From a virus, in UHGV virus genome UHGV-0183130: 40,647 nucleotides of DNA. One strand, given 5' to 3'. The notes below the pieces were generated by a model. It ran no database searches and was not told the DNA's origin. It worked only from the letters and a program-made list of their open reading frames with translations. A program made the position numbers and the translations under genes. Positions 3,815 to 40,647 of the stretch are shown here, in pieces. Position 1 is the stretch's first letter, and every line of letters begins with the position of its first letter.

Positions 3815-4240
3815 CTATATGGTTGATGCTCTGATATCAAGTCCGGAATTAGTATCTCCGGTGATGCGGAATTTTTGATGTTCACGAGCATTGATCTGCG
3901 TGGCAGTCTCTTTGAGTGGTTGTCCGACCTGCATTCCACATAATCCTTTACCTTTTGAATCGCCAGATATTCCTAGAATATGTCGGCCGGATGTAACATT
4001 GATATCGATCGTTTCTCCCGTATCAATTCTTGCATAGGATTTTCCATCAATAGTTACTTCTACAAAGCATCCACCACCAGCAAACCATCCTTGATCTCGT
4101 GTAATTGTTATCACCGAGTCACCAGCCCCCTTCAGCAATACACGTTCAGATGGTACTTGTTTTGCAACGGTAGAATTCACCGCCGTGGTTGAACACCCAG
4201 CAACGCTAAGCGCAATTAGAAGCAGCAAAGTCTTTTTCAT
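3815..4240 (-). CDS. Predicted lipoprotein (accessory/moron gene)
   Basis: Start at ATG 4240 gives MKKTLLLLIALSVAGCSTTAV: signal peptide with lipobox VAGC; SD-like GGTGA upstream; own terminator downstream. Confidence 0.6.
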   Translation of the reverse strand: MKKTLLLLIALSVAGCSTTAVNSTVAKQVPSERVLLKGAGDSVITITRDQGWFAGGGCFVEVTIDGKSYARIDTGETIDINVTSGRHILGISGDSKGKGLCGMQVGQPLKETATQINAREHQKFRITGDTNSGLDIRASTI

Positions 4241-4350
4241 ATCCCTATCACCTTTGATTAATTTGCCAAAAGAGTAGCAGGGATCCGGTAACGACAAAAC
4301 CCGCAGTTAAGCGGGTTGGGATAGCAAAAACATTTTAACTGCTTTGAAAT

Positions 4351-5094
4351 TTATGCCACATCAGCACCATGAATCAGATGGCGCAACGCATCAATTCCGT
4401 TAGTGTTGTACCGGAACGCTTCAACCTGTTTACTTGAGTAGGCCGACTTGTCCAGAAAGAACTTGCCATGCGCTTCTGTCTTCAGCTTGTGTGTGTTAGC
4501 AACGCGTCCAATTTTCTGAGCAGAAACCCCCAGCATCTCCCCCACCTCACTCGCAGTGTGGTAATGCTCCTCGATAACAGGTAACGGGATGGCGTCATAA
4601 CCAATAAGCGGATTAATCAACGATGCCGTGAGCACCTGATGTGCCATCGGATCCAATCTAGGAAGCAGAGTAATGATTTCCCGCGCGCTCGCGATATTCT
4701 TCTCCAATGCCTGGGCTTTCAACTGTTCTGCCTTAGCCAATCGGTACTCAGTGATACCTGTGTTGCTTTTTGGCATCGCTGGTAATACCTGCATATCTTC
4801 CAGCTTATCAACCAGAGAACGTCGAACGGCTTTCGATTCACGAGCGGCTACTCGGAGGGCTTGCTTGATAGACATTGTAATTACTTCAATGTCTTGACCA
4901 TTTTTACGACCTACACTTTTTGTGTAGGTCTCCCCTTCAAGCTCATCAACAACCTTCTCAATGAACTTGTTATTTCGGACAGCCGGCTCACCGCATTGCT
5001 TTCGCGCAGCATTCACCATCTCCAGCAAGTACTGGCTATCAATGGTTTTCTCGGTGACATTAGCGCTATTTACTGCTAAATTTAATGAAGTCAT
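4351..5094 (-). CDS. Phage antirepressor-like protein (ANT/KilA-C type C-terminal domain)
   Basis: 247 aa ORF; C-terminal segment HYHTASEVGEMLGVSAQKIGRVANTHKLKTEAHGKF resembles the conserved C-terminal domain of phage antirepressors; adjacent to Arc/Mnt-like regulators. Confidence 0.5.
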   Translation of the reverse strand: MTSLNLAVNSANVTEKTIDSQYLLEMVNAARKQCGEPAVRNNKFIEKVVDELEGETYTKSVGRKNGQDIEVITMSIKQALRVAARESKAVRRSLVDKLEDMQVLPAMPKSNTGITEYRLAKAEQLKAQALEKNIASAREIITLLPRLDPMAHQVLTASLINPLIGYDAIPLPVIEEHYHTASEVGEMLGVSAQKIGRVANTHKLKTEAHGKFFLDKSAYSSKQVEAFRYNTNGIDALRHLIHGADVA

Positions 5095-5171
5095 TGGTTG
5101 GACCCTTATGACAGATTTATGGATAGCCGATAGCCCTAACTATCGGCTTTTCTATTTGCAGCATTGCAAAT

Positions 5172-5840
5172 TCAGTAGATTCTTGGCCTTTCTCCTTCCT
5201 GAAGCTGTAGTTCAGCATGAGTCTTAATCATGTACATAAACGCGGCCCCATCATTGAAACGATCGTGAAGACGGCCTGCGAGCGGAGACTCAATCGCCCT
5301 CAACGCTGGCTCTATCTGGTTAAACCATGCTTCACACATAATCTCGAAATAATCGAACATTGCGTTTGCATTGTGGGCGTGGACTTCTCGATCGCTGAGC
5401 ATCTTCGGTACTGGAAAGTTAATAGATACCTCACGGTCCAGAATGTCTAACACCCAGTGTCGGAATTCTTTAGCAACCGGAGTTCTGGCAAACATAGCGA
5501 CCATGTGTGCGCCACGTAGAGAAAAAACCCTAGTTTCCTGATGCCCACCAGGGGTGGTCAACTTGACCACCCTTGTCATTTTTTCTGTAAACTCATCAAT
5601 ATGACGAGCAAAAATTCGCTGAACAGCTTTATCGTCTGCATATTGAAGCGCGTAACCAATCTGATTAGCGGTCAGCCAGATGCCATCGATATCAGGAGCC
5701 GGCTGCAGAGAAATGCCATGGAAGTTCAGCTCTTCTTTCGTTACACTGTTCATGTCGATATTTCCTGCCAAGGATTTCTTCGATAAGAAACCCAGGGTGT
5801 TCGCGCACTCCTGGGTTTCACTGTTTTTATGCTTGTTCAC
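5172..5840 (-). CDS. Phage antirepressor-like protein (AntA/Bro-N-like N-terminal region)
   Basis: 222 aa ORF (track start is GTG at 5840 with GGGGGGAAG SD; alternative ATG at 5753). Segment ELNFHGISLQPAPDIDGIWLTANQIGYALQY resembles antirepressor N-domains. Directly downstream of the Arc-like gene, as ant follows arc in P22 immI. Confidence 0.5.
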   Translation of the reverse strand: MNKHKNSETQECANTLGFLSKKSLAGNIDMNSVTKEELNFHGISLQPAPDIDGIWLTANQIGYALQYADDKAVQRIFARHIDEFTEKMTRVVKLTTPGGHQETRVFSLRGAHMVAMFARTPVAKEFRHWVLDILDREVSINFPVPKMLSDREVHAHNANAMFDYFEIMCEAWFNQIEPALRAIESPLAGRLHDRFNDGAAFMYMIKTHAELQLQEGERPRIY

Positions 5841-5994
5841 TCTTCCCCCCTTCTAATCCGTACGCTTTCCTCAACTGATAGATGAGCTCAGTATTGAACT
5901 GACGGCACTCATCTTCCCCATTTCTCTCTATCGCCAACCGGACATCTTCAGGAAATCGAACCTTACGCTGGTACATATCTTTAGCTTTTTCCAT
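5827..5994 (-). CDS. Arc-like ribbon-helix-helix repressor
   Basis: Start at ATG 5994 (SD GGAGGGG) gives 55 aa MEKAKDMYQRKVRFPEDVRLAIERNGE..., size and pattern like P22 Arc. The longer track ORF would read through the operator palindromes. Confidence 0.6.
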   Translation of the reverse strand: MEKAKDMYQRKVRFPEDVRLAIERNGEDECRQFNTELIYQLRKAYGLEGGKSEQA

Positions 5995-6007
5995 AACCCC
6001 TCCAATT

Positions 6008-6075
6008 ATGCCCCACGGTGGGACACATAAAGTGTCACACCGTGCGTCATTGATGTCAACCCCACCGTGGGGCAT
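6008..6075. promoter_or_regulatory. Operator region between divergent Arc-like and Mnt-like genes
   Basis: Perfect 15-bp inverted repeat ATGCCCCACGGTGGG (6008-6022) / CCCACCGTGGGGCAT (6061-6075), each holding an 11-bp palindrome (CCCACGGTGGG, CCCACCGTGGG), flanking a central near-palindrome GACACATAAAGTGTC. Confidence 0.5.
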
Positions 6076-6113
6076 AATTTACATAATGTGAACTTTTTGA
6101 GTGAGGCAACCAA

Positions 6114-6557
6114 ATGAGCAGAGAAGATCCTCAACTAAGAATAAGATTACCAATTGAATTAAAAGAAAAAATTGAAGATGCAGCAAAATCCAATAACCGC
6201 TCTATGAATGCTGAAATAGTTCAACGTCTCGACAACAGCTTCCTTAGCGAATTACGTGAAGATGAAGTAATTTCTGCTCAAGATGCAATTCAACTTGTTG
6301 AAAAAGCGAGGGATGAACTCTCTGAAATAATATTCAAAAGGACTTTTTCAGAGATCAACAAAAAGGTACGGATTGGTCATTCCACATTCCATATTCATCT
6401 CAGCGATCTTGAGTTGGACGGACTTAGTGACGATGATTTCAACACTGTTTTCAAAAAAACTTTTAGTCGCCTAAAAGAGTTAGGTTACGAAGTCTGGGAA
6501 AAGACTTGGGATGCGGATGGTTTTGGGGTGGAAATTCCAGGGGAACAGTCCACCTAA
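6114..6557 (+). CDS. Mnt-like ribbon-helix-helix repressor with C-terminal extension
   Basis: N-terminus MSREDPQLRIRLPIELKEKIEDAAKSNNRSMNAEIVQRLDNSF parallels P22 Mnt; 147 aa, AT-rich; divergent from the Arc-like gene. Confidence 0.6.
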   Translation: MSREDPQLRIRLPIELKEKIEDAAKSNNRSMNAEIVQRLDNSFLSELREDEVISAQDAIQLVEKARDELSEIIFKRTFSEINKKVRIGHSTFHIHLSDLELDGLSDDDFNTVFKKTFSRLKELGYEVWEKTWDADGFGVEIPGEQST

Positions 6558-6563
6558 ATGGGC

Positions 6564-7274
6564 TTAAGCTAGAGTCTTATAGCGAAGTACCTTCATTGTT
6601 CTTTCTTGCCAGTAGCCGCCGTATGGCACACGTTGGCTGAGGTGCCCATACAGGTGATGCAACAGCATGTTACCTTCCAGTAGAATTCCCGCGTGATTCC
6701 ACTTATTGGCCTGGACCTGCATGATAACCATATCACCTGGCTGCGGTACGCCACTGAATTCACGGAATCCGCATTCATACCAGCAATCGTGGTAGAAGTT
6801 TTCGGGATAACTGTCTTCCCACCAGGGATAATCCACGCGGTAATCCGTCAGCTCAATGCCATGCGTTTGCCGGAAATAGCTCATCACCAGCCCCCAGCAA
6901 TCGAAATGACCGAGCACAAATGGGCGCTCAAGTAGCGGCAACTCGCCCCGCGGCTGAATGGTACGCAGATCCCCCTCCGGCCAGCTGAGGATATGCCACG
7001 GAAGTAACGTAGCGTCACACTGTGCCTTATCCAGTTCGCTCGGCTGTGTCGTTGCGTCCGGGTGACTGTGGACAATGGCAATCACTGTTCCCCAGTCTTC
7101 GGCAGCGGCATAATCTTCCGGCGACAGGTGGAAATGCTCTGTCGGATCGGTTGCCAGATTACGGCAAGGAATGTACCGCTGCACCCTGCTTTTTTGCACC
7201 ACTACGCCGCAGCATTCGCGGGGATATTCAGAAGCGGCATGCGCCATAATGGCGTCGATAATTTTCTGACGCAT
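6564..7274 (-). CDS. K: Tail assembly protein K
   Basis: 236 aa; lambda position between L and I; strong resemblance to gpK including the HSHP motif region (AIVHSHPDATTQPSELD). Confidence 0.85.
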   Translation of the reverse strand: MRQKIIDAIMAHAASEYPRECCGVVVQKSRVQRYIPCRNLATDPTEHFHLSPEDYAAAEDWGTVIAIVHSHPDATTQPSELDKAQCDATLLPWHILSWPEGDLRTIQPRGELPLLERPFVLGHFDCWGLVMSYFRQTHGIELTDYRVDYPWWEDSYPENFYHDCWYECGFREFSGVPQPGDMVIMQVQANKWNHAGILLEGNMLLHHLYGHLSQRVPYGGYWQERTMKVLRYKTLA

Positions 7275-18713: not shown

Positions 18714-20635
18714 TATTCATCTCCAGATAATGCCCGGGCATAATCAGCCAGGGTTTTGTTATTGGTCCGGCTCCCCTCTTCCTCCTGCAGGCTCGCGAGC
18801 AGTGAATCAAGATTCAGTTGCCATCGCGAAATACTGATCCGCAGGGCCGCCAGCGCATAAACGAAGCAGTCCAGCGCTTCATTTCGTCGCTTTTTGCTGT
18901 CCCAGACGATTTTCTTACGCCCGTCCACCCATTTTTCAACCTGCTCCTCAGCAGTCAGTTGCTGAGCCTCAGCCAGATCGTAAATTTCGGGGTTATTGGG
19001 AAAATGCACGGCTCCGGCAAGAGGTTCACTCCCTTCCGGCTGAAGTGTGAAGCGGTTATAAATCTGCTCCTTTGCGGTATCAGTCCCCACTTCCGTCAGA
19101 TAAACGCCGTTCTTGTTGCGTTTACGCGGCATATTCGCGACGGGCTTACCGTAAACGGAAGCCCCTTTAATCGGGATCACGCGAAACAGGCCATGCTTTT
19201 TTGAGCGATTGTAGACAATGGTCGGGTCAATACCGCCGATATCCCAGCAGATACGGGATACCGACATTTCCACGCCATTCTTTCGGGAGTAGGTTTTGTT
19301 AATCGCCTCGTCCACCCTGACGAGGGTCGCTTCATCATCATGACGGCCCATAATGATTTGCCGGTCAATCAGCCAGCTTTCCTCTCCGGGTCCCCATCCC
19401 CAGACGCGCATTTCATATCGATCCAGCTGGGAGTCAATCCCGGCTGTCAGATAAGCAACACGATCCGGTACGGATGCCCCGAAAAACTCTTTGCGTTCGG
19501 CCATGAGCTCCGCGTCAGGCCGTTCACCAATTTTAGGCTCCCATGTTTCGCCCAGCGTAGTGTTCACGAAGGTTTTACGCTTTCCGGTATCCCCTTTCGT
19601 TTTTAGCCAGTCTTTGACGATCTGTACCCAGGTGGTAAATGGGCTGTATGCCGTCCAGATGTGAAACGTCACGCTGTCCGGCGGGTCGATTTCTGTGCCT
19701 GTTGATGAAAACCAGGATAAACCATCGCGCGTCCAGATCCCGGTGGTGTCGCAGATGTAACGAGCTTCAGTGAAATCCAGCTCCTGCTGCTTAATGACGC
19801 AGGCATTATGTTCACACAGGTAAAAGACGCTGGAGGGTTCGCCCGGTGTCCATTTGAACCCGAACGGGGTTTCTTTGTCGCCGAACTTAAGGTACTGCTC
19901 TTCACCACAGTGCGGACAGGCAACATGAAAGCGCATGAAATGCCCGGACTCGCTGGCAGCACGCTCAATCTGGCAGGTCCCCTTTGTTTTTGGCGTTGAG
20001 CCACGAATAGATTTAGGCCAGACAGAGCCCTCAATACGTTTATCACCCAGAAACGTCGGGGAACCCTCTTTCTCAATATCCTCATCAAAAGCAGCGAGTT
20101 CGTCATAGCCGGCAACATCCACTGACTTTTCGCGATAGTTTTTCGCCGCCTTACCCCCCAGACACCAGAACCCGCGACCGTTGGAGAAGCGTTTCATACT
20201 GAGCGTATTGTCCCGGTGCTTTTTGCCATACCAGGGGGCCAGCGCCAGAAGTGACGGAATATCACGGATCGTGGGTTCAACATGCGACTTCATGAAGTTT
20301 TCGGCGTCACCATCCGTGGGCAGCCAGATAAGGGAATTTCGCTGCTTGTGCTGTATAAAATACGCATAAACACCCAGCAACATTTTTGAATAGCCAACAC
20401 GGGCAGACTTAACAACGTTAACTTCACGAATGTAGTCGTTACCCATCGCATTCATGATCGCGCGCTGAAATGGCAATGTTTCCCAGCGCCCTTCCTGGTA
20501 GGCCGACTCTTTGGGGAGATAGTAATTATCGTCTGCCCATTCAACCGCCGTTTGCGGCTCAGGTCGGTACAGCGAAAGTAGACCCGCGCGCGCAGAGTGC
20601 TGCAGCCCCTTAACCTGACTGTTCGATATATTCAC
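18713..20635 (-). CDS. A: Terminase large subunit A
   Basis: 640 aa starting MNISNSQV (GTG start overlapping Nu1, as in lambda); extensive near-identity to lambda gpA blocks. Confidence 0.9.
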
Positions 20636-33539: not shown

Positions 33540-34199
33540 ATGAAAACAGAGATGAAAGACCGCATCAGATCCAGACGAATCCAGCTGGATATAACCCAAT
33601 TAGCACTGGCTAAAAAGCTTGGTGTAAGCCGTGTATCGGTTACAAAATGGGAAAACGGCACGACAAAGCCTGATGGTGAGAACCTTCACCAGTTGGCTCA
33701 GGCTCTATCAACAACACCAGAGTGGATACTCTATGGAAGCGGTGATGAGGCCATTGACGACACGCGCGTCGTGCCTTTTTTGAAACCCCCTGTAGCTGTA
33801 CCGATCATATCGGCAGTTCAAGCCGGTTTATGGACGGATAGCTATGCCTGCTCAAGACTTACAGACGTGATTTCCTGGACTCAAACAACTGCAAATGTAT
33901 CGGATGAAGCGTTTGGGTTAGTAGTCCGCGGTGAGTCGATGACTAACCCGCAAGGACTTCCATCTATACCAGAAGGTTCTATTGTTATAGTCGAGCCCCA
34001 TTATGGGCAGCTTGATGATCTATATGGGAAAATAGTCGTTGCTATATTGGATGGGACATCAGAAGCAACGGTTAAAAAATTAGTTTGGGATAGCCCCTAC
34101 TCATACCTAATGCCACTGAATCCGTTATTTAAGCCAATCCAAATTGATGGTAACTGTCGCATTGTCGGAAAAGTTGTACAAATCACTCAAAACATTTAA
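33540..34199 (+). CDS. cI: CI-like repressor (HTH_XRE N-domain plus LexA/S24 autopeptidase C-domain)
   Basis: 219 aa; N-terminal HTH (ITQLALAKKLGVSRVSVTKWENG), C-terminal S24 features (VRGESM serine region, KK pair); divergent from cro. Confidence 0.85.
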   Translation: MKTEMKDRIRSRRIQLDITQLALAKKLGVSRVSVTKWENGTTKPDGENLHQLAQALSTTPEWILYGSGDEAIDDTRVVPFLKPPVAVPIISAVQAGLWTDSYACSRLTDVISWTQTTANVSDEAFGLVVRGESMTNPQGLPSIPEGSIVIVEPHYGQLDDLYGKIVVAILDGTSEATVKKLVWDSPYSYLMPLNPLFKPIQIDGNCRIVGKVVQITQNI

Positions 34200-39278: not shown

Positions 39279-39515
39279 ATGTCGCGAATGATCCCTTTAC
39301 TTGACTGGGCAAAAGAGGAATTTGGAGAGCAAGCACCAAGTGAACGCATATTGAAAAAATATGCAAAGGGAAAAATGATGGCTCCTCCAGCAATTAAGGT
39401 TGGTCGCTGCTGGATGGTTGATCGTAATGCCCGATTTGTAGGAATGCTTGCAGAACCGAAAATTCCGACTTCGGCCAGCCCAAGATTACAACGGATAATT
39501 GCTGATGGCTGCTAG
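39279..39515 (+). CDS. xis: Excisionase-like protein
   Basis: About 78 aa from ATG 39279 (SD GGAG); immediately upstream of and overlapping int; KVGRCWMVDRNARFVG fits small excisionase DNA-binding proteins. Confidence 0.5.
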   Translation: MSRMIPLLDWAKEEFGEQAPSERILKKYAKGKMMAPPAIKVGRCWMVDRNARFVGMLAEPKIPTSASPRLQRIIADGC

Positions 39516-40647
39516 ACCACGCACTCACAAAATACCAATCCCTAACCTGTACTGCAAATTGGATAAGCGCACCGGTAAGGTATATTGGCAATATAAACAT
39601 CCTATTTCAGGTCGTTTTCACAGCCTTGGAACCGATGAATCCGAGGCTAAACAAGTCGCCACAGAAGCTAACATAATCATAGCTGAACAGCGAACTAGGC
39701 AGATCTTGAGCGTGAATGATCGCCTGGCACGGATGAAAGGCAGGCGCACTGATATTACGGTTACTGAGTGGCTCGATAAATACATAGGCATTCAGGAGGA
39801 AAGGCTTAAAAATAACGAGCTTAAACCAAACTCCTTTCTTCAAAAAGGTAAGCCTGTCCGTTTATTCAGAGAACACTGCGGCCTGCAGCATCTAAAGGAT
39901 ATTTCAGCTCTCGATATTGCAGAAATAACTGATGCCATTAAAGCCGAAGGCCACAATCGCATGGCTCAGGTAGTTAGAATGGTGCTCATCGATGTTTTTA
40001 AAGAGGCGCAACATGCCGGACACGTTGCCCCCGGATACAATCCGGCGCAAGCCACTAAGCAACCGAGAAATAGAATAACAAGGCAGCGTCTTTCCTTTGA
40101 TGAATGGAGTGTTATTTATAAGACGGCGGAACAGCAGCAGCCTTATCTTCAGTGTGGCATGTTATTAGCCCTAATCACTGGTCAGCGTCTTGGTGATATA
40201 TGCAATATGAAATTCACCGATGTATGGGATGACATGCTCCATATCGAGCAGGAAAAAACAGGTTCTCGTCTGGCTATTCCGTTAGATCTTAGATGCGAGG
40301 TGCTGGGCCTCACTCTCAGGGATGTTATTTCAAAATGTCGGGATGCGGTTGTCAGTAAATATCTTGTCCATTTCAGGCACACCACATCCCAGGCCAATAG
40401 AGGTGATCGAGTGTCGAGCAGCTGCCTGACATCCACTTTTAAAAAAGCCAGAGACAAAAGCGGCCTAGAGTGGAAAAACGGTACGCCCCCAACTTTCCAT
40501 GAACAGCGTTCTTTATCGGAGCGACTGTATCGTGAACAGGGTCTGGATACTCAGAAACTGCTGGGGCACAAGTCCAGAAAAATGACGGATAAGTATAACG
40601 ACGATCGAGGGAAAGACTGGGTCGTTGTTGGGGTAAAAACGGGGTAA
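39505..40647 (+). CDS. int: Tyrosine integrase, lambda Int family
   Basis: C-terminal catalytic region parallels lambda Int (ITGQRLGDICNMKFTDV, PPTFHEQRSLSERLY, LLGHKS, DKYNDDRGKDW); track ORF begins at TTG 39499, first ATG at 39505; stop codon is the last three bases of the window. Confidence 0.85.
   Translation: MAARPRTHKIPIPNLYCKLDKRTGKVYWQYKHPISGRFHSLGTDESEAKQVATEANIIIAEQRTRQILSVNDRLARMKGRRTDITVTEWLDKYIGIQEERLKNNELKPNSFLQKGKPVRLFREHCGLQHLKDISALDIAEITDAIKAEGHNRMAQVVRMVLIDVFKEAQHAGHVAPGYNPAQATKQPRNRITRQRLSFDEWSVIYKTAEQQQPYLQCGMLLALITGQRLGDICNMKFTDVWDDMLHIEQEKTGSRLAIPLDLRCEVLGLTLRDVISKCRDAVVSKYLVHFRHTTSQANRGDRVSSSCLTSTFKKARDKSGLEWKNGTPPTFHEQRSLSERLYREQGLDTQKLLGHKSRKMTDKYNDDRGKDWVVVGVKTG

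What the first reader, a model, noticed from the sequence alone, without database searches (positions are those of the whole stretch)
6008..6075. Triple-palindrome operator between the divergent RHH repressor genes
Two perfect 15-bp inverted copies (ATGCCCCACGGTGGG / CCCACCGTGGGGCAT), each an 11-bp palindrome, flank a third near-palindrome (GACACATAAAGTGTC) within 68 bp. The layout suggests cooperative or competitive binding by the two RHH repressors, and the long inverted repeat could also form a cruciform or RNA hairpin.
Basis: seen in the sequence. Interest (0 to 1): 0.5.

Follow-up and report, generated by a model that had tools for sequence, protein, structure and literature searches.

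The report
Three-site repressor operator of antirepressor module
This 70-bp stretch is the on/off control region of a prophage "antirepressor" cassette related to the phage P22 immI region: three copies of one repressor-binding palindrome sit on two back-to-back promoters, an ordinary kind of element in a layout not yet described.

Summary
The inverted repeat is real. It is 19 nt and perfect (6004-6022 / 6061-6079), the longest in the window, against at most 13 nt in 100 shuffles. The conserved third element is another copy of the same operator at 6034-6048.

All three sites fit GnCnCAC-N-GTGnGnC. O_L (6010-6024) lies at about +1 of the predicted arc/ant promoter. O_M (6034-6048) lies in that promoter's spacer. 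O_R (6059-73) lies in the spacer of the predicted mnt-like promoter.

- In 70 distinct homologous regions from Enterobacterales prophages the invariant positions stay fixed. The variable positions (±4, ±6) are never compensated, so this is a protein site, not a hairpin or cruciform.
- In distant lineages all three sites change together to a different palindrome, along with the DNA-reading residues of the ribbon-helix-helix (RHH) proteins.
- The core CCAC-N-GTGG and the position of O_L match the phage P22 Mnt operator. A sar-like antisense RNA and two antirepressor genes complete an immI-type module inside a lambdoid tail operon.

Which repressor occupies which site is inferred, not shown. Verdict: a new variant of a known kind, of moderate interest.

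The parts
6010..6024 (.). O_L: operator copy GCCCCAC-G-GTGGGAC (centre 6017). It covers about +1 to +15 of the predicted arc/ant promoter (Pant) transcript, just upstream of the arc-like ribosome-binding site.
   Evidence: Zero-mismatch match to GNCNCACNGTGNGNC. It is conserved in 70 distinct homologous regions with invariant positions ±1, 2, 3, 5, 7. It has the same core (CCAC-N-GTGG) and the same position, 14-15 nt after the -10 box, as the phage P22 Mnt operator.
6034..6048 (.). O_M: operator copy GTCACAC-C-GTGCGTC (centre 6041). It lies in the 17-bp spacer of the predicted Pant promoter and overlaps its TGT extended -10 box.
   Evidence: Found as inverted repeat I2 and as a zero-mismatch consensus match. 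It is nearly invariant across homologues. In Xenorhabdus the same sequence replaces O_L, alongside the same Mnt-like DNA-reading N-terminus.
6059..6073 (.). O_R: operator copy ACCCCAC-C-GTGGGGC (centre 6066). It fills the spacer of the predicted mnt-like promoter (Pmnt) and abuts its -10 box.
   Evidence: One mismatch to the consensus. It is 96-100% conserved, and the O_M-O_R spacing is 25 bp in 70 of 70 regions.
6004..6022 (.). Left arm of the 19-nt perfect inverted repeat (AATTATGCCCCACGGTGGG). It consists of most of O_L (6010-6022) plus 6 nt of outer flank (6004-6009).
   Evidence: Perfection over 19 nt is specific to this window; 3 other regions reach 18 nt.
6061..6079 (.). Right arm of the 19-nt perfect inverted repeat (CCCACCGTGGGGCATAATT). 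It consists of O_R plus the Pmnt -10 box.
6050..6078 (+). Predicted promoter of the mnt-like gene (Pmnt): TTGATG (6050-6055), 17-bp spacer, CATAAT (6073-6078). Predicted transcription start near 6085.
   Evidence: This is the only sigma-70 consensus hit in 5700-6700. Both hexamers are conserved across homologues. The start site has not been mapped.
6031..6059 (-). Predicted promoter of arc-like/ant (Pant): TTGACA (6059-6054), 17-bp spacer ending in TGT (6039-6037), then GACACT (6036-6031). Predicted transcription start near 6024. Its -35 box overlaps the Pmnt -35 box by 2 bp.
   Evidence: Read directly from the sequence. The layout matches P22 Pant, TTGACA-17-TATATT followed by the Mnt operator. 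The -35 box and the GACACT/GACAAT -10 box are conserved. The consensus scan did not call it because the -10 box matches only 3 of 6 positions.
5827..5994 (-). arc-like RHH gene (55 aa, MEKAKDMYQRKVRFP...). Its ribosome-binding site GGAGG is the reverse complement of 5999-6003.
   Evidence: ORF list. Pfam Arc scores 18.9 bits, below the 20.4 cut-off. PHROG 'Arc-like repressor' E = 5e-5. hhalign aligns it to the Mnt-like RHH domain at 74.5% probability, in register. Public records call it an Arc family protein.
6114..6557 (+). mnt-like repressor gene (147 aa): an N-terminal RHH domain plus a C-terminal domain of about 100 aa with unknown fold.
5755..5822 (+). sar-like antisense RNA. It runs across the ant ribosome-binding site (ending 2 nt short of the start codon) and the arc-ant junction, and ends in a terminator hairpin.
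   Evidence: Rfam RF00262 (sar), full-length match at 31.2 bits, below the gathering score of 43; E = 1e-3 to 9e-5. Both stems are kept and the loop is conserved.
5172..5753 (-). ant: antirepressor gene (193 aa) with BRO-N and P22_AR_C domains.
   Evidence: Pfam. PHROG 'anti-repressor Ant' E = 4e-32.
4351..5094 (-). Second antirepressor-family gene (247 aa), downstream on the same strand.
   Evidence: PHROG 1726 'anti-repressor' E = 9e-77.

Best explanation
The element is the bidirectional promoter-operator region of an immI-type secondary-immunity cassette (mnt-like <-> arc-like, sar-like RNA, ant, ant2) inserted as a moron (an independently expressed insert) in the tail operon of a lambdoid prophage.

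It carries three copies of one 15-bp RHH operator, GnCnCAC-N-GTGnGnC:
- O_L lies at about +1 of the arc/ant promoter (Pant).
- O_M lies in the Pant spacer and extended -10 box.
- O_R lies in the spacer of the mnt-like promoter (Pmnt).
- The two -35 boxes overlap back to back.

Proposed mechanism (inferred):
- In the lysogen the Mnt-like repressor binds each palindrome, presumably as a dimer of RHH dimers, as P22 Mnt does on its operator.
- Binding at O_L and O_M keeps Pant, and so the antirepressors, off.
- Binding at O_R limits the repressor's own synthesis.
- The Arc-like protein is made from Pant. Its DNA-reading residues (Q9, K11, R13) nearly match those of the Mnt-like protein (Q7, R9, R11). 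It probably recognises the same sites and shuts Pant (O_M, O_L) and Pmnt (O_R) after a burst, as P22 Arc does through its own operator.

What is shown: the sites, their conservation, and their co-variation with the proteins. What is inferred: the promoter positions, which protein occupies which site, and the regulatory logic.
For: 1. Three consensus sites fall within 64 bp. Only one other one-mismatch hit occurs in 40.6 kb, against 1.43 expected by chance.
2. In 70 distinct homologous regions, positions ±1, 2, 3 and 5 are 96-100% conserved and ±7 is conserved except at the left half of O_R, while the centre base and positions ±4 and ±6 vary. O_M-O_R is always 25 bp, and O_L-O_M is 24-27 bp.
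3. The 27-bp block of O_M plus the two -35 boxes is identical in Proteus, Xenorhabdus, Yersinia, Pantoea, Kluyvera and others.
4. The two half-site flavours (CCCCAC and TCACAC) swap at O_L without any change in the proteins' DNA-reading residues (L161, L162, L171, L031). This indicates one recognition specificity.
5. In distant lineages the same scaffold carries three copies of a different palindrome:
   - L065: AACCAC-N-TTGGTT
   - L153 and L156: CCCCAT-W-ATGGGG
   - L088: GTCTAG-type
   - L128: ACCT-N3-AGGT

   In L065, L064, L153 and L156 the spacings are 27-28 and 25 bp. The Mnt-like beta-strand residues differ in each lineage.
6. L064 keeps CCAC-N-GTGG sites with a Mnt-like protein of the same type, although its Arc is a different, true P22-type protein (PQFNLR).
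7. The P22 Mnt operator AGGTCCACGGTGGACCT shares the 9-bp core and the position 14-15 nt downstream of the Pant -10 box. The best structural relative of the 147-aa protein is P22 Mnt.
8. The DNA-facing residues of the two partner proteins match at 22 of 44 positions over 22 lineages, against 6.4 in shuffled pairings (P < 5e-5).
9. A sar-like RNA and Ant homologues complete the immI gene set.
Against: - No binding or transcription data exist for this family, and no paper in the searched library contains these operator strings.
- The Pant -10 box (GACACT) is weak, and the consensus scan did not call it.
- O_M is much more strongly conserved at positions ±4 and ±6 than O_L. Promoter overlap explains only one of its four deviations, so O_M may have a separate role.
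- In P22, Arc and Mnt have nearly identical beta-strand residues yet bind different operators. Similar reading residues therefore do not prove shared sites.
- The variable O_L-O_M spacing (24-27 bp) argues against rigid cooperative contacts between those two sites.
- The small protein's RHH assignment is below the Pfam cut-off.
Confidence: 0.7

Rival explanations
1. P22-like division of labour. The Mnt-like protein binds only the CCCCAC-type sites (O_L and O_R). The Arc-like protein has its own specificity for the TCACAC/ACGCAC-type site O_M in the Pant spacer, which is the position of the Arc operator in P22.
For: - O_M occupies the Pant spacer exactly as the P22 Arc operator does.
- O_M deviates from O_L and O_R symmetrically at positions ±4 and ±6, and these bases are 92-100% conserved.
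- Only one of the four deviations is explained by the -10 box.
- L031 and Mixta carry a perfect palindrome of the O_M type at O_L.
- The central beta-strand residue differs between the two proteins (K11 against R9).
Against: - O_M fits the same invariant skeleton, GnCnCAC-N-GTGnGnC, with no mismatch.
- Positions ±4 and ±6 are also the tolerant positions in O_L.
- The O_M-type and CCCCAC-type halves interchange and form hybrids at O_L and O_R with unchanged proteins. In L161 and L031, a Mnt-like protein restricted to CCCCAC sites would be left with no site on Pant.
- In other lineages (L065, L153, L156, L143) all three sites are alike.
Confidence: 0.17
2. One reading: two identical outer palindromes for one repressor, plus a distinct central palindrome GACAC-ATAAA-GTGTC (6022-6036) as the operator of the other repressor.
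For: The 5+5 palindrome is present in the window. A similar string, ACATAATGTG, recurs at 6081-6090 (D6).
Against: - The left arm varies without compensation in the closest relatives (GGCAC, GGCGC, GACAT) and is absent in others (aaaataatTGTCAC).
- The right arm is explained as the Pant -10 box.
- The O_L-O_M spacer is the least conserved part of the region.
Confidence: 0.04
3. The 19-nt inverted repeat acts through nucleic-acid structure, as a DNA cruciform or an RNA hairpin, rather than as protein-binding sites.
For: As single-stranded DNA, 5998-6085 folds at -24.6 kcal/mol with a z-score of -6.6.
Against: - The long perfect repeat is seen in 1 of 70 distinct homologous regions (18 nt in 3 more). 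The typical run is 7-9 nt.
- Substitutions at O_L +4 and +6 are compensated in O_R in 0 of 38 and 0 of 21 cases. Within O_L itself they are compensated in 4 of 38 and 1 of 21.
- With the predicted divergent promoters the two arms lie on different transcripts.
- No Rfam family matches the region.
Confidence: 0.03

Closest known systems
Phage P22 immI control region (Pant/Pmnt with the Mnt and Arc operators; mnt, arc, sar, ant)
   Same: - Divergent mnt-type and arc-type RHH genes, with arc followed by ant and an antisense sar-type RNA at the arc-ant junction.
- An Mnt-type palindrome with the identical 9-bp core CCAC-N-GTGG, centred 14-15 nt after the Pant -10 box and just before the arc ribosome-binding site.
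- TTGACA-17-(-10) geometry of Pant, with a repressor site in its spacer.
- A cassette inserted as a moron in the late operon (PMC2629481).
   Different: - There are three copies of one operator type, instead of one Mnt operator plus one unrelated 21-bp Arc operator.
- The promoters are back to back and share only 2 bp of their -35 boxes (predicted start sites about 61 bp apart). In P22 the promoters overlap completely and share one spacer.
- A site in the Pmnt spacer predicts direct negative autoregulation. In P22, Mnt stimulates Pmnt indirectly (own knowledge).
- The Mnt-like protein has a C-terminal domain of about 100 aa with unknown fold, not the short Mnt tetramerisation helix.
- There are two antirepressor genes.
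- The host phage is a lambda/N15-type siphovirus, not a P22-like podovirus.
'ant moron' of P22-like phages (epsilon34, HK620, Sf6, CUS-3 and others; Villafane et al. 2008, PMC2629481)
   Same: A variable, independently expressed cassette inside the late operon, often carrying mnt, arc and ant homologues.
   Different: - It was described for the gene 16-gene 9 interval of P22-like podoviruses. Here it lies between tail genes of a siphovirus, between K and L in one E. coli prophage and after K in this window. It also occurs in the phage TL-2011b.
- The operator layout of these morons was not analysed in that paper.
Phage lambda OR region (OR1-OR2-OR3 between PR and PRM, shared by CI and Cro). 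This is an analogy of mechanism, not homology; the lambda facts are from own knowledge.
   Same: - Three similar palindromic operators lie about 23-25 bp apart, centre to centre, on two back-to-back divergent promoters.
- Two repressors are encoded divergently on either side.
- If the Arc-like and Mnt-like proteins share the sites, the logic is the same: two proteins, one operator set.
   Different: - The proteins are RHH (beta-ribbon readout), not helix-turn-helix.
- The circuit controls an antirepressor, not the lytic early operons.
- Sharing of the sites by both proteins is inferred only.

Membership tests
P22 immI-type module (mnt-arc-sar-ant) | Divergently transcribed mnt-type and arc-type RHH repressor genes, with arc heading an operon that contains ant | tested here: met
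   ORFs at 6114-6557 (+), 5827-5994 (-) and 5172-5753 (-). Pfam Arc, BRO-N and P22_AR_C hits. PHROG Ant hit. The best solved-structure hit of the 147-aa protein is P22 Mnt.
P22 immI-type module (mnt-arc-sar-ant) | An Mnt operator (palindrome with CCAC-G-GTGG core) overlapping the start of the ant promoter transcript | tested here: met
   O_L, GCCCCACGGTGGGAC, is centred 14 nt after the predicted -10 box. In P22, AGGTCCACGGTGGACCT is centred 15 nt after TATATT. The promoter itself is predicted, not mapped.
P22 immI-type module (mnt-arc-sar-ant) | A separate Arc operator (21 bp, TAGA half-sites) in the promoter spacer, different from the Mnt operator | tested here: not met
   The Pant spacer holds O_M, a third copy of the Mnt-type consensus. 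No second conserved palindrome type appears in 70 homologous regions.
P22 immI-type module (mnt-arc-sar-ant) | A sar antisense RNA across the ant ribosome-binding site | tested here: inconclusive
   Rfam RF00262 gives a full-length match at 5755-5822 (+), in the expected place and orientation, with both stems kept. The score is 31.2 bits, below the gathering score of 43.
P22 immI-type module (mnt-arc-sar-ant) | Fully overlapping divergent promoters that share one spacer | tested here: not met
   The predicted promoters are back to back and overlap by only 2 bp in their -35 boxes (6054-6055); each has its own spacer. This rests on consensus prediction only.
P22 immI-type module (mnt-arc-sar-ant) | The repressors bind the operators and repress Pant; Ant inactivates the prophage repressor | not testable with these tools
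   This needs gel-shift or footprinting assays and genetics. A CI-type repressor with an S24 peptidase domain, the likely target of Ant, is encoded at 33540-34199.
Ribbon-helix-helix (Arc/MetJ; Pfam PF03869): 147-aa protein | Significant match to the Arc-like DNA-binding domain, including the beta-strand and the R-S-x-N helix-B cap | tested here: met
   Pfam Arc scores 53 bits against a cut-off of 20.4. It aligns with 1mnt and Arc structures. The AlphaFold2 model has helices at 14-26 and 31-45.
Ribbon-helix-helix (Arc/MetJ; Pfam PF03869): 55-aa protein | Significant match to the Arc-like DNA-binding domain | tested here: inconclusive
   - Pfam Arc scores 18.9 bits, below the 20.4 cut-off.
- PHROG 'Arc-like repressor' gives E = 5e-5.
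- A profile search against solved Arc structures gives E = 0.05-0.13, in register.
- hhalign to the Mnt-like RHH domain gives 74.5% probability.
- The AlphaFold2 monomer has the two helices in the right places, but the N-terminus is modelled at low confidence.
Structured nucleic-acid element (cruciform or RNA hairpin) | Base pairing maintained by compensatory substitutions across homologues | tested here: not met
   Substitutions at O_L +4 and +6 are compensated in O_R in 0 of 38 and 0 of 21 cases. The 19-nt perfect repeat occurs in 1 of 70 regions.
LexA-controlled antirepressor modules (Gifsy phages, N15 antC) | A LexA box (CTGT-N8-ACAG) at the antirepressor promoter | tested here: not met
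   No match with up to one mismatch lies between 5000 and 10000. The 13 hits in the whole window equal the chance expectation of 12.9.

The most novel reading that the evidence does not exclude
The two divergently encoded RHH paralogues (Mnt-like and Arc-like) share one set of three operators. That would make a lambda-OR-like, two-repressor, tripartite-operator switch built from beta-ribbon proteins. The scaffold is old and portable: in many proteobacterial prophage lineages the three palindromes and the DNA-reading residues of both proteins have been re-specified together, while the geometry has been kept (site - site - overlapping -35 boxes - site, last spacing 25 bp). Under this reading, P22, with two different operators, would be the exception rather than the paradigm.
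Probability: 0.35. Interest if true: 0.55.

Novelty: new variant of a known kind. Interest (0 to 1): 0.4.

Why it matters
Antirepressor cassettes decide whether resident prophages are induced, and they can act in trans on other prophages (PMC3121763). Their control is therefore relevant to prophage induction.

P22 immI has been the only studied model of Arc/Mnt control. This family is widespread in Enterobacterales prophages and in at least one sequenced phage, TL-2011b. It uses the same parts with a different wiring: three like operators, separated back-to-back promoters, and probable direct autoregulation.

The natural series of lineages in which operator and reading residues changed together gives a ready-made data set for the RHH recognition code. 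One example is Arg at the central strand position paired with C/C at operator positions -5 and -6, against Lys or Asn paired with A/T. It also gives a set of orthogonal repressor-operator pairs.

Tried and rejected
- **Rfam on 4200-6700.** Nothing matched the operator region itself; only the sar-like match next door was found.
- **Literature.** A search for the operator strings returned only unrelated papers. Searches for immI, Mnt and antirepressor found the 'ant moron' concept but no description of this operator family.
- **Arc-like protein.** The AlphaFold2 monomer has low confidence (pLDDT 64) and models the N-terminus as a helix. That is uninformative for a fold that forms only as an intertwined dimer.
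- **Separating the two repressors genetically.** I searched for loci that have the Arc-like gene without the Mnt-like gene. All 80 loci carried both, so the two could not be told apart this way.
- **Conserved block downstream of the Pmnt -10 box (6079-6098).** I considered it as an Arc-like operator and rejected it. It differs between sub-lineages whose Arc-like reading residues are identical.
- **The palindromic TTGnnGTCAA between O_M and O_R.** I considered it as an operator and rejected it. It stays constant across lineages whose repressor reading residues differ, as expected for two overlapping -35 boxes.
- **LexA box.** None was found.

Full report

The perfect inverted repeat is in fact 19 nt: AATTATGCCCCACGGTGGG at 6004-6022 and CCCACCGTGGGGCATAATT at 6061-6079, with 38 nt between the arms. 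It is the longest short-range inverted repeat in the window. In 100 shuffles of the window the longest was 13 nt. CCCACNGTGGG occurs only at 6012 and 6061. The string GACACATAAAGTGTC is also present at 6022-6036.

**2. Gene context**

- To the left, on the minus strand, lies a 55-aa Arc-like gene (5827-5994). Its ribosome-binding site GGAGG is the reverse complement of 5999-6003.
- It is followed by a BRO-N/P22_AR_C antirepressor gene (5172-5753), a second antirepressor-family gene (4351-5094) and a lipoprotein gene.
- To the right, on the plus strand, lies a 147-aa protein (6114-6557). Its N-terminal 45 residues are an Arc/Mnt ribbon-helix-helix domain (Pfam E = 3e-14). Its best solved relative is the P22 Mnt repressor (1mnt, E = 5.6e-7).
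- Rfam finds a full-length match to sar, the P22 antisense regulator of ant, at 5755-5822 (+). This is exactly across the ant ribosome-binding site and the arc-ant junction. The score, 31.2 bits, is below the gathering score of 43.
- The cassette sits next to tail gene K (6564-7274) in a phage whose structural genes are about 78% identical to N15 and mEp237.
- The window is a complete lambdoid prophage with a CI-type S24 repressor and an integrase.
- The cassette therefore fits the 'ant moron' described for P22-like phages (PMC2629481), here carried in a siphovirus tail operon.

**3. A third copy of the same operator, not a different palindrome**

The repeat search also paired 6008-6026 with 6032-6050 at 84% complementarity (I2). 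The consensus GNCNCACNGTGNGNC matches three places:
- 6010-6024 (O_L, no mismatch)
- 6034-6048 (O_M, no mismatch)
- 6059-6073 (O_R, one mismatch)

Only one other one-mismatch hit occurs in 40.6 kb, and 1.43 are expected by chance. The site centres are 6017, 6041 and 6066.

**4. Conservation within the family**

I collected the region from the phage TL-2011b, E. coli prophages, IMG/VR contigs and 15 species-representative genomes: Proteus, Xenorhabdus, Yersinia pestis, Pantoea, Mixta, Kluyvera, Raoultella and others. Kluyvera cryocrescens is nearly identical to the window. Across 70 distinct sequences:
- Positions ±1, 2, 3 and 5 are 96-100% conserved at all three sites. Position ±7 is conserved except at the left half of O_R.
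- The centre base is free (C, G, T or A).
- Positions ±4 and ±6 vary.
- The O_M-O_R distance is always 25 bp. The O_L-O_M distance is 24-27 bp.

The variable positions are never compensated. When O_L +4 or +6 departs from G, the potential partner in O_R is complementary in 0 of 38 and 0 of 21 cases. Within O_L itself the figures are 4 of 38 and 1 of 21. The 19-nt perfect repeat is unique to this window; 3 others reach 18 nt and the typical run is 7-9 nt. The single strand does fold well in this window (z = -6.6), but that is a by-product of two good copies of a palindrome. Selection acts on base identity, as for a protein site, not on pairing.

Its right arm, AGTGTC, is the reverse complement of a conserved -10 box.

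**5. One specificity for all three sites**

- The two half-site flavours, CCCCAC and TCACAC/ACGCAC, interchange.
  - Xenorhabdus L161 has an exact O_M copy at the O_L position.
  - L162 and L171 have hybrids at O_L, and L161 and L171 also have a hybrid right half at O_R.
  - L031 and Mixta have a perfect GTCACAC-G-GTGTGAC at O_L.
  - All of these carry the same DNA-reading residues in both proteins.
- In distant relatives the scaffold is kept but all three sites carry a different, lineage-specific palindrome. The scaffold is: divergent small RHH gene, site, site, overlapping -35 boxes TTGnnGTCAA, site, mnt-like gene.
  - L065 has AACCAC-N-TTGGTT three times (spacings 28 and 25 bp).
  - L153 and L156 have CCCCAT-W-ATGGGG three times (27 and 25 bp).
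  - L064 has (A/C)CCAC-N-GTGG(T/G) three times (27 and 25 bp).
  - L088 has GTCTAG-type sites.
  - L128 has ACCT-N3-AGGT; L086 carries a similar ACCT...AGGT repeat by eye.
  - L143 has TACATCGTGTA three times.
- The Mnt-like strand residues change in step. QLRIR goes with CC at positions -6 and -5. QMKIR (L065) goes with AA. P22 HFNFR goes with GT.
- L064 keeps CCAC-N-GTGG sites although its Arc is a different, true P22-type protein (LPQFNLR). This ties the sites to the Mnt-like protein.

**6. Promoters (predicted, not mapped)**

On the plus strand, TTGATG (6050-6055), a 17-bp spacer and CATAAT (6073-6078) form the only consensus promoter hit in the region. Both hexamers are conserved. O_R fills the spacer.

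On the minus strand, TTGACA (6059-6054), a 17-bp spacer ending in TGT, and GACACT (6036-6031) line up base for base with P22 Pant:

    P22     TTGACA-tgatagaagcactctac-TATATT-ctcaat-AGGTCCACGGTGGACCT-..GAGGTgaatATG
    window  TTGACA-tcaatgacgcacggtgt-GACACT-ttatgtg-TCCCACCGTGGGGCA-taattGGAGGggttATG

- O_L corresponds in core sequence and position to the P22 Mnt operator.
- O_M sits where P22 has its unrelated Arc operator.
- O_R has no P22 counterpart. In P22 the two promoters overlap completely and share one spacer (annotation). Here only 2 bp of the -35 boxes overlap.

**7. Who binds?**

The Mnt-like protein is the best-supported ligand (sections 5 and 6).

For the Arc-like protein, no second conserved palindrome type exists anywhere in the region. 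The only other constant element, TTGnnGTCAA, stays the same across lineages with different reading residues, so it is a promoter element. hhalign puts Arc-like Q9, K11 and R13 in register with Mnt-like Q7, R9 and R11. Over 22 lineages the DNA-facing residues of the two partner proteins match at 22 of 44 positions, against 6.4 for shuffled pairings (P < 5e-5). In several lineages the strands are almost identical:
- L143: PFGVRM and PFGLRM
- L145: PYGLRM in both
- L088: YNLRL in both
- L138: K(Y/F)IVRF

I therefore think it more likely than not that the Arc-like protein uses the same sites.

Two facts keep this an inference. P22 Arc and Mnt also have similar strands yet bind different operators. 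And O_M is unusually invariant at positions ±4 and ±6; the -10 box explains only one of its four deviations. The rival model, in which O_M is the Arc-like site, keeps about 0.17.

**8. Proposed mechanism**

- In the lysogen the Mnt-like protein, made from Pmnt, occupies O_L and O_M and blocks RNA polymerase at Pant. The two antirepressors are then not made.
- Occupation of O_R caps the repressor's own level.
- The -35 boxes overlap, so clearing polymerase from Pant may also favour Pmnt, as in P22 (own knowledge of P22; inferred here).
- On infection, or on loss of the Mnt-like protein, Pant fires. The Arc-like protein accumulates and shuts Pant, and probably Pmnt through O_R. The sar-like RNA limits ant translation.
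- The variable O_L-O_M distance (24-27 bp) argues against rigid face-of-helix cooperativity between those two sites.

**9. Comparison with known systems, and novelty**

The cassette is an immI-type module by gene content, the O_L operator and the sar-like RNA. It fails two P22 features that I tested: a separate Arc operator, and fully overlapping promoters. It carries no LexA box, unlike the Gifsy and N15 antirepressor controls (PMC3121763). In layout it resembles lambda OR, with three like sites about 24-25 bp apart on back-to-back promoters and two repressors; this is an analogy only.

I found no description of these operators in the searchable literature. Public annotation says only 'Arc family DNA-binding protein'.

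Verdict: a real, strongly constrained regulatory element and a new variant of a known kind. It is of moderate interest, mainly for the portable three-site scaffold and the operator/reading-residue co-variation.

Noticed in passing
window 5755-5822 (+): A sar-like antisense RNA: a full-length match to Rfam RF00262 at 31.2 bits, below the gathering score of 43. It lies across the ant ribosome-binding site and ends in a hairpin plus a T-run. A candidate -10 box, TACACT, is at 5742-5747. The match implies that ant starts at the ATG at 5753, not at the GTG at 5840.
   Followed up: partly
window 5827-6075 (-): The mechanical ORF of the arc-like gene runs 27 codons upstream through all three operators to an ATG that is part of the Pmnt -10 box. 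Many database entries for homologues are 75-84 aa long instead of 55 aa. These are probably over-extended gene calls.
   Followed up: partly
window 6079-6098: The block TTTACATAATGTGAACTTTT in the predicted mnt-like leader is conserved as TTTAC(A/T)TATTGTGAATTTTT in most, but not all, family members. It does not follow the Arc-like reading residues. Its function is unexplained.
   Followed up: partly
[not shown]
   Followed up: partly
L232 (IMGVR_UViG_2808606796_000003): A natural deletion appears to have fused O_L to O_R into a single hybrid site, removing O_M and both -35 boxes. This is consistent with recombination between the repeated operators.
   Followed up: no
L001 (phage TL-2011b) 3259-3303: The mnt-like gene of TL-2011b has an extra G (AAGGGATC, against AAGGATC in E. 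coli prophage L002). This truncates the reading frame after 14 codons, and the record annotates a downstream start. It is either a sequencing error or a phage that lacks the maintenance repressor.
   Followed up: no
L161 (Xenorhabdus bakwenae), L031/L170 (Mixta): In these loci O_L is replaced by an exact or symmetrised copy of O_M (TGTCACACCGTGCGTCAC; GTCACACGGTGTGAC).
   Followed up: yes
window 18726-18745: A 20-bp near-perfect palindrome, GATAATGCCCGGGCATAATC, lies at the junction of the terminase gene and the next head gene. It shares ATGCCC/GGGCAT and the ATAAT flank with the outer halves of the operator but lacks the CAC-N-GTG core.
   Followed up: no
window 4351-5094 (-) and 3815-4240 (-): A second antirepressor-family gene (PHROG 1726, E = 9e-77) and a lipoprotein gene (PHROG 890) follow ant on the same strand. 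They may be co-transcribed from the same promoter.
   Followed up: no
window 33540-34199 (+), 39499-40647 (+): A CI-type repressor with an S24 peptidase domain, and an integrase at the window's right end, which the ORF reaches. The window is a whole lambdoid prophage. The closest genome hit for the cassette is Kluyvera cryocrescens (L163).
   Followed up: no
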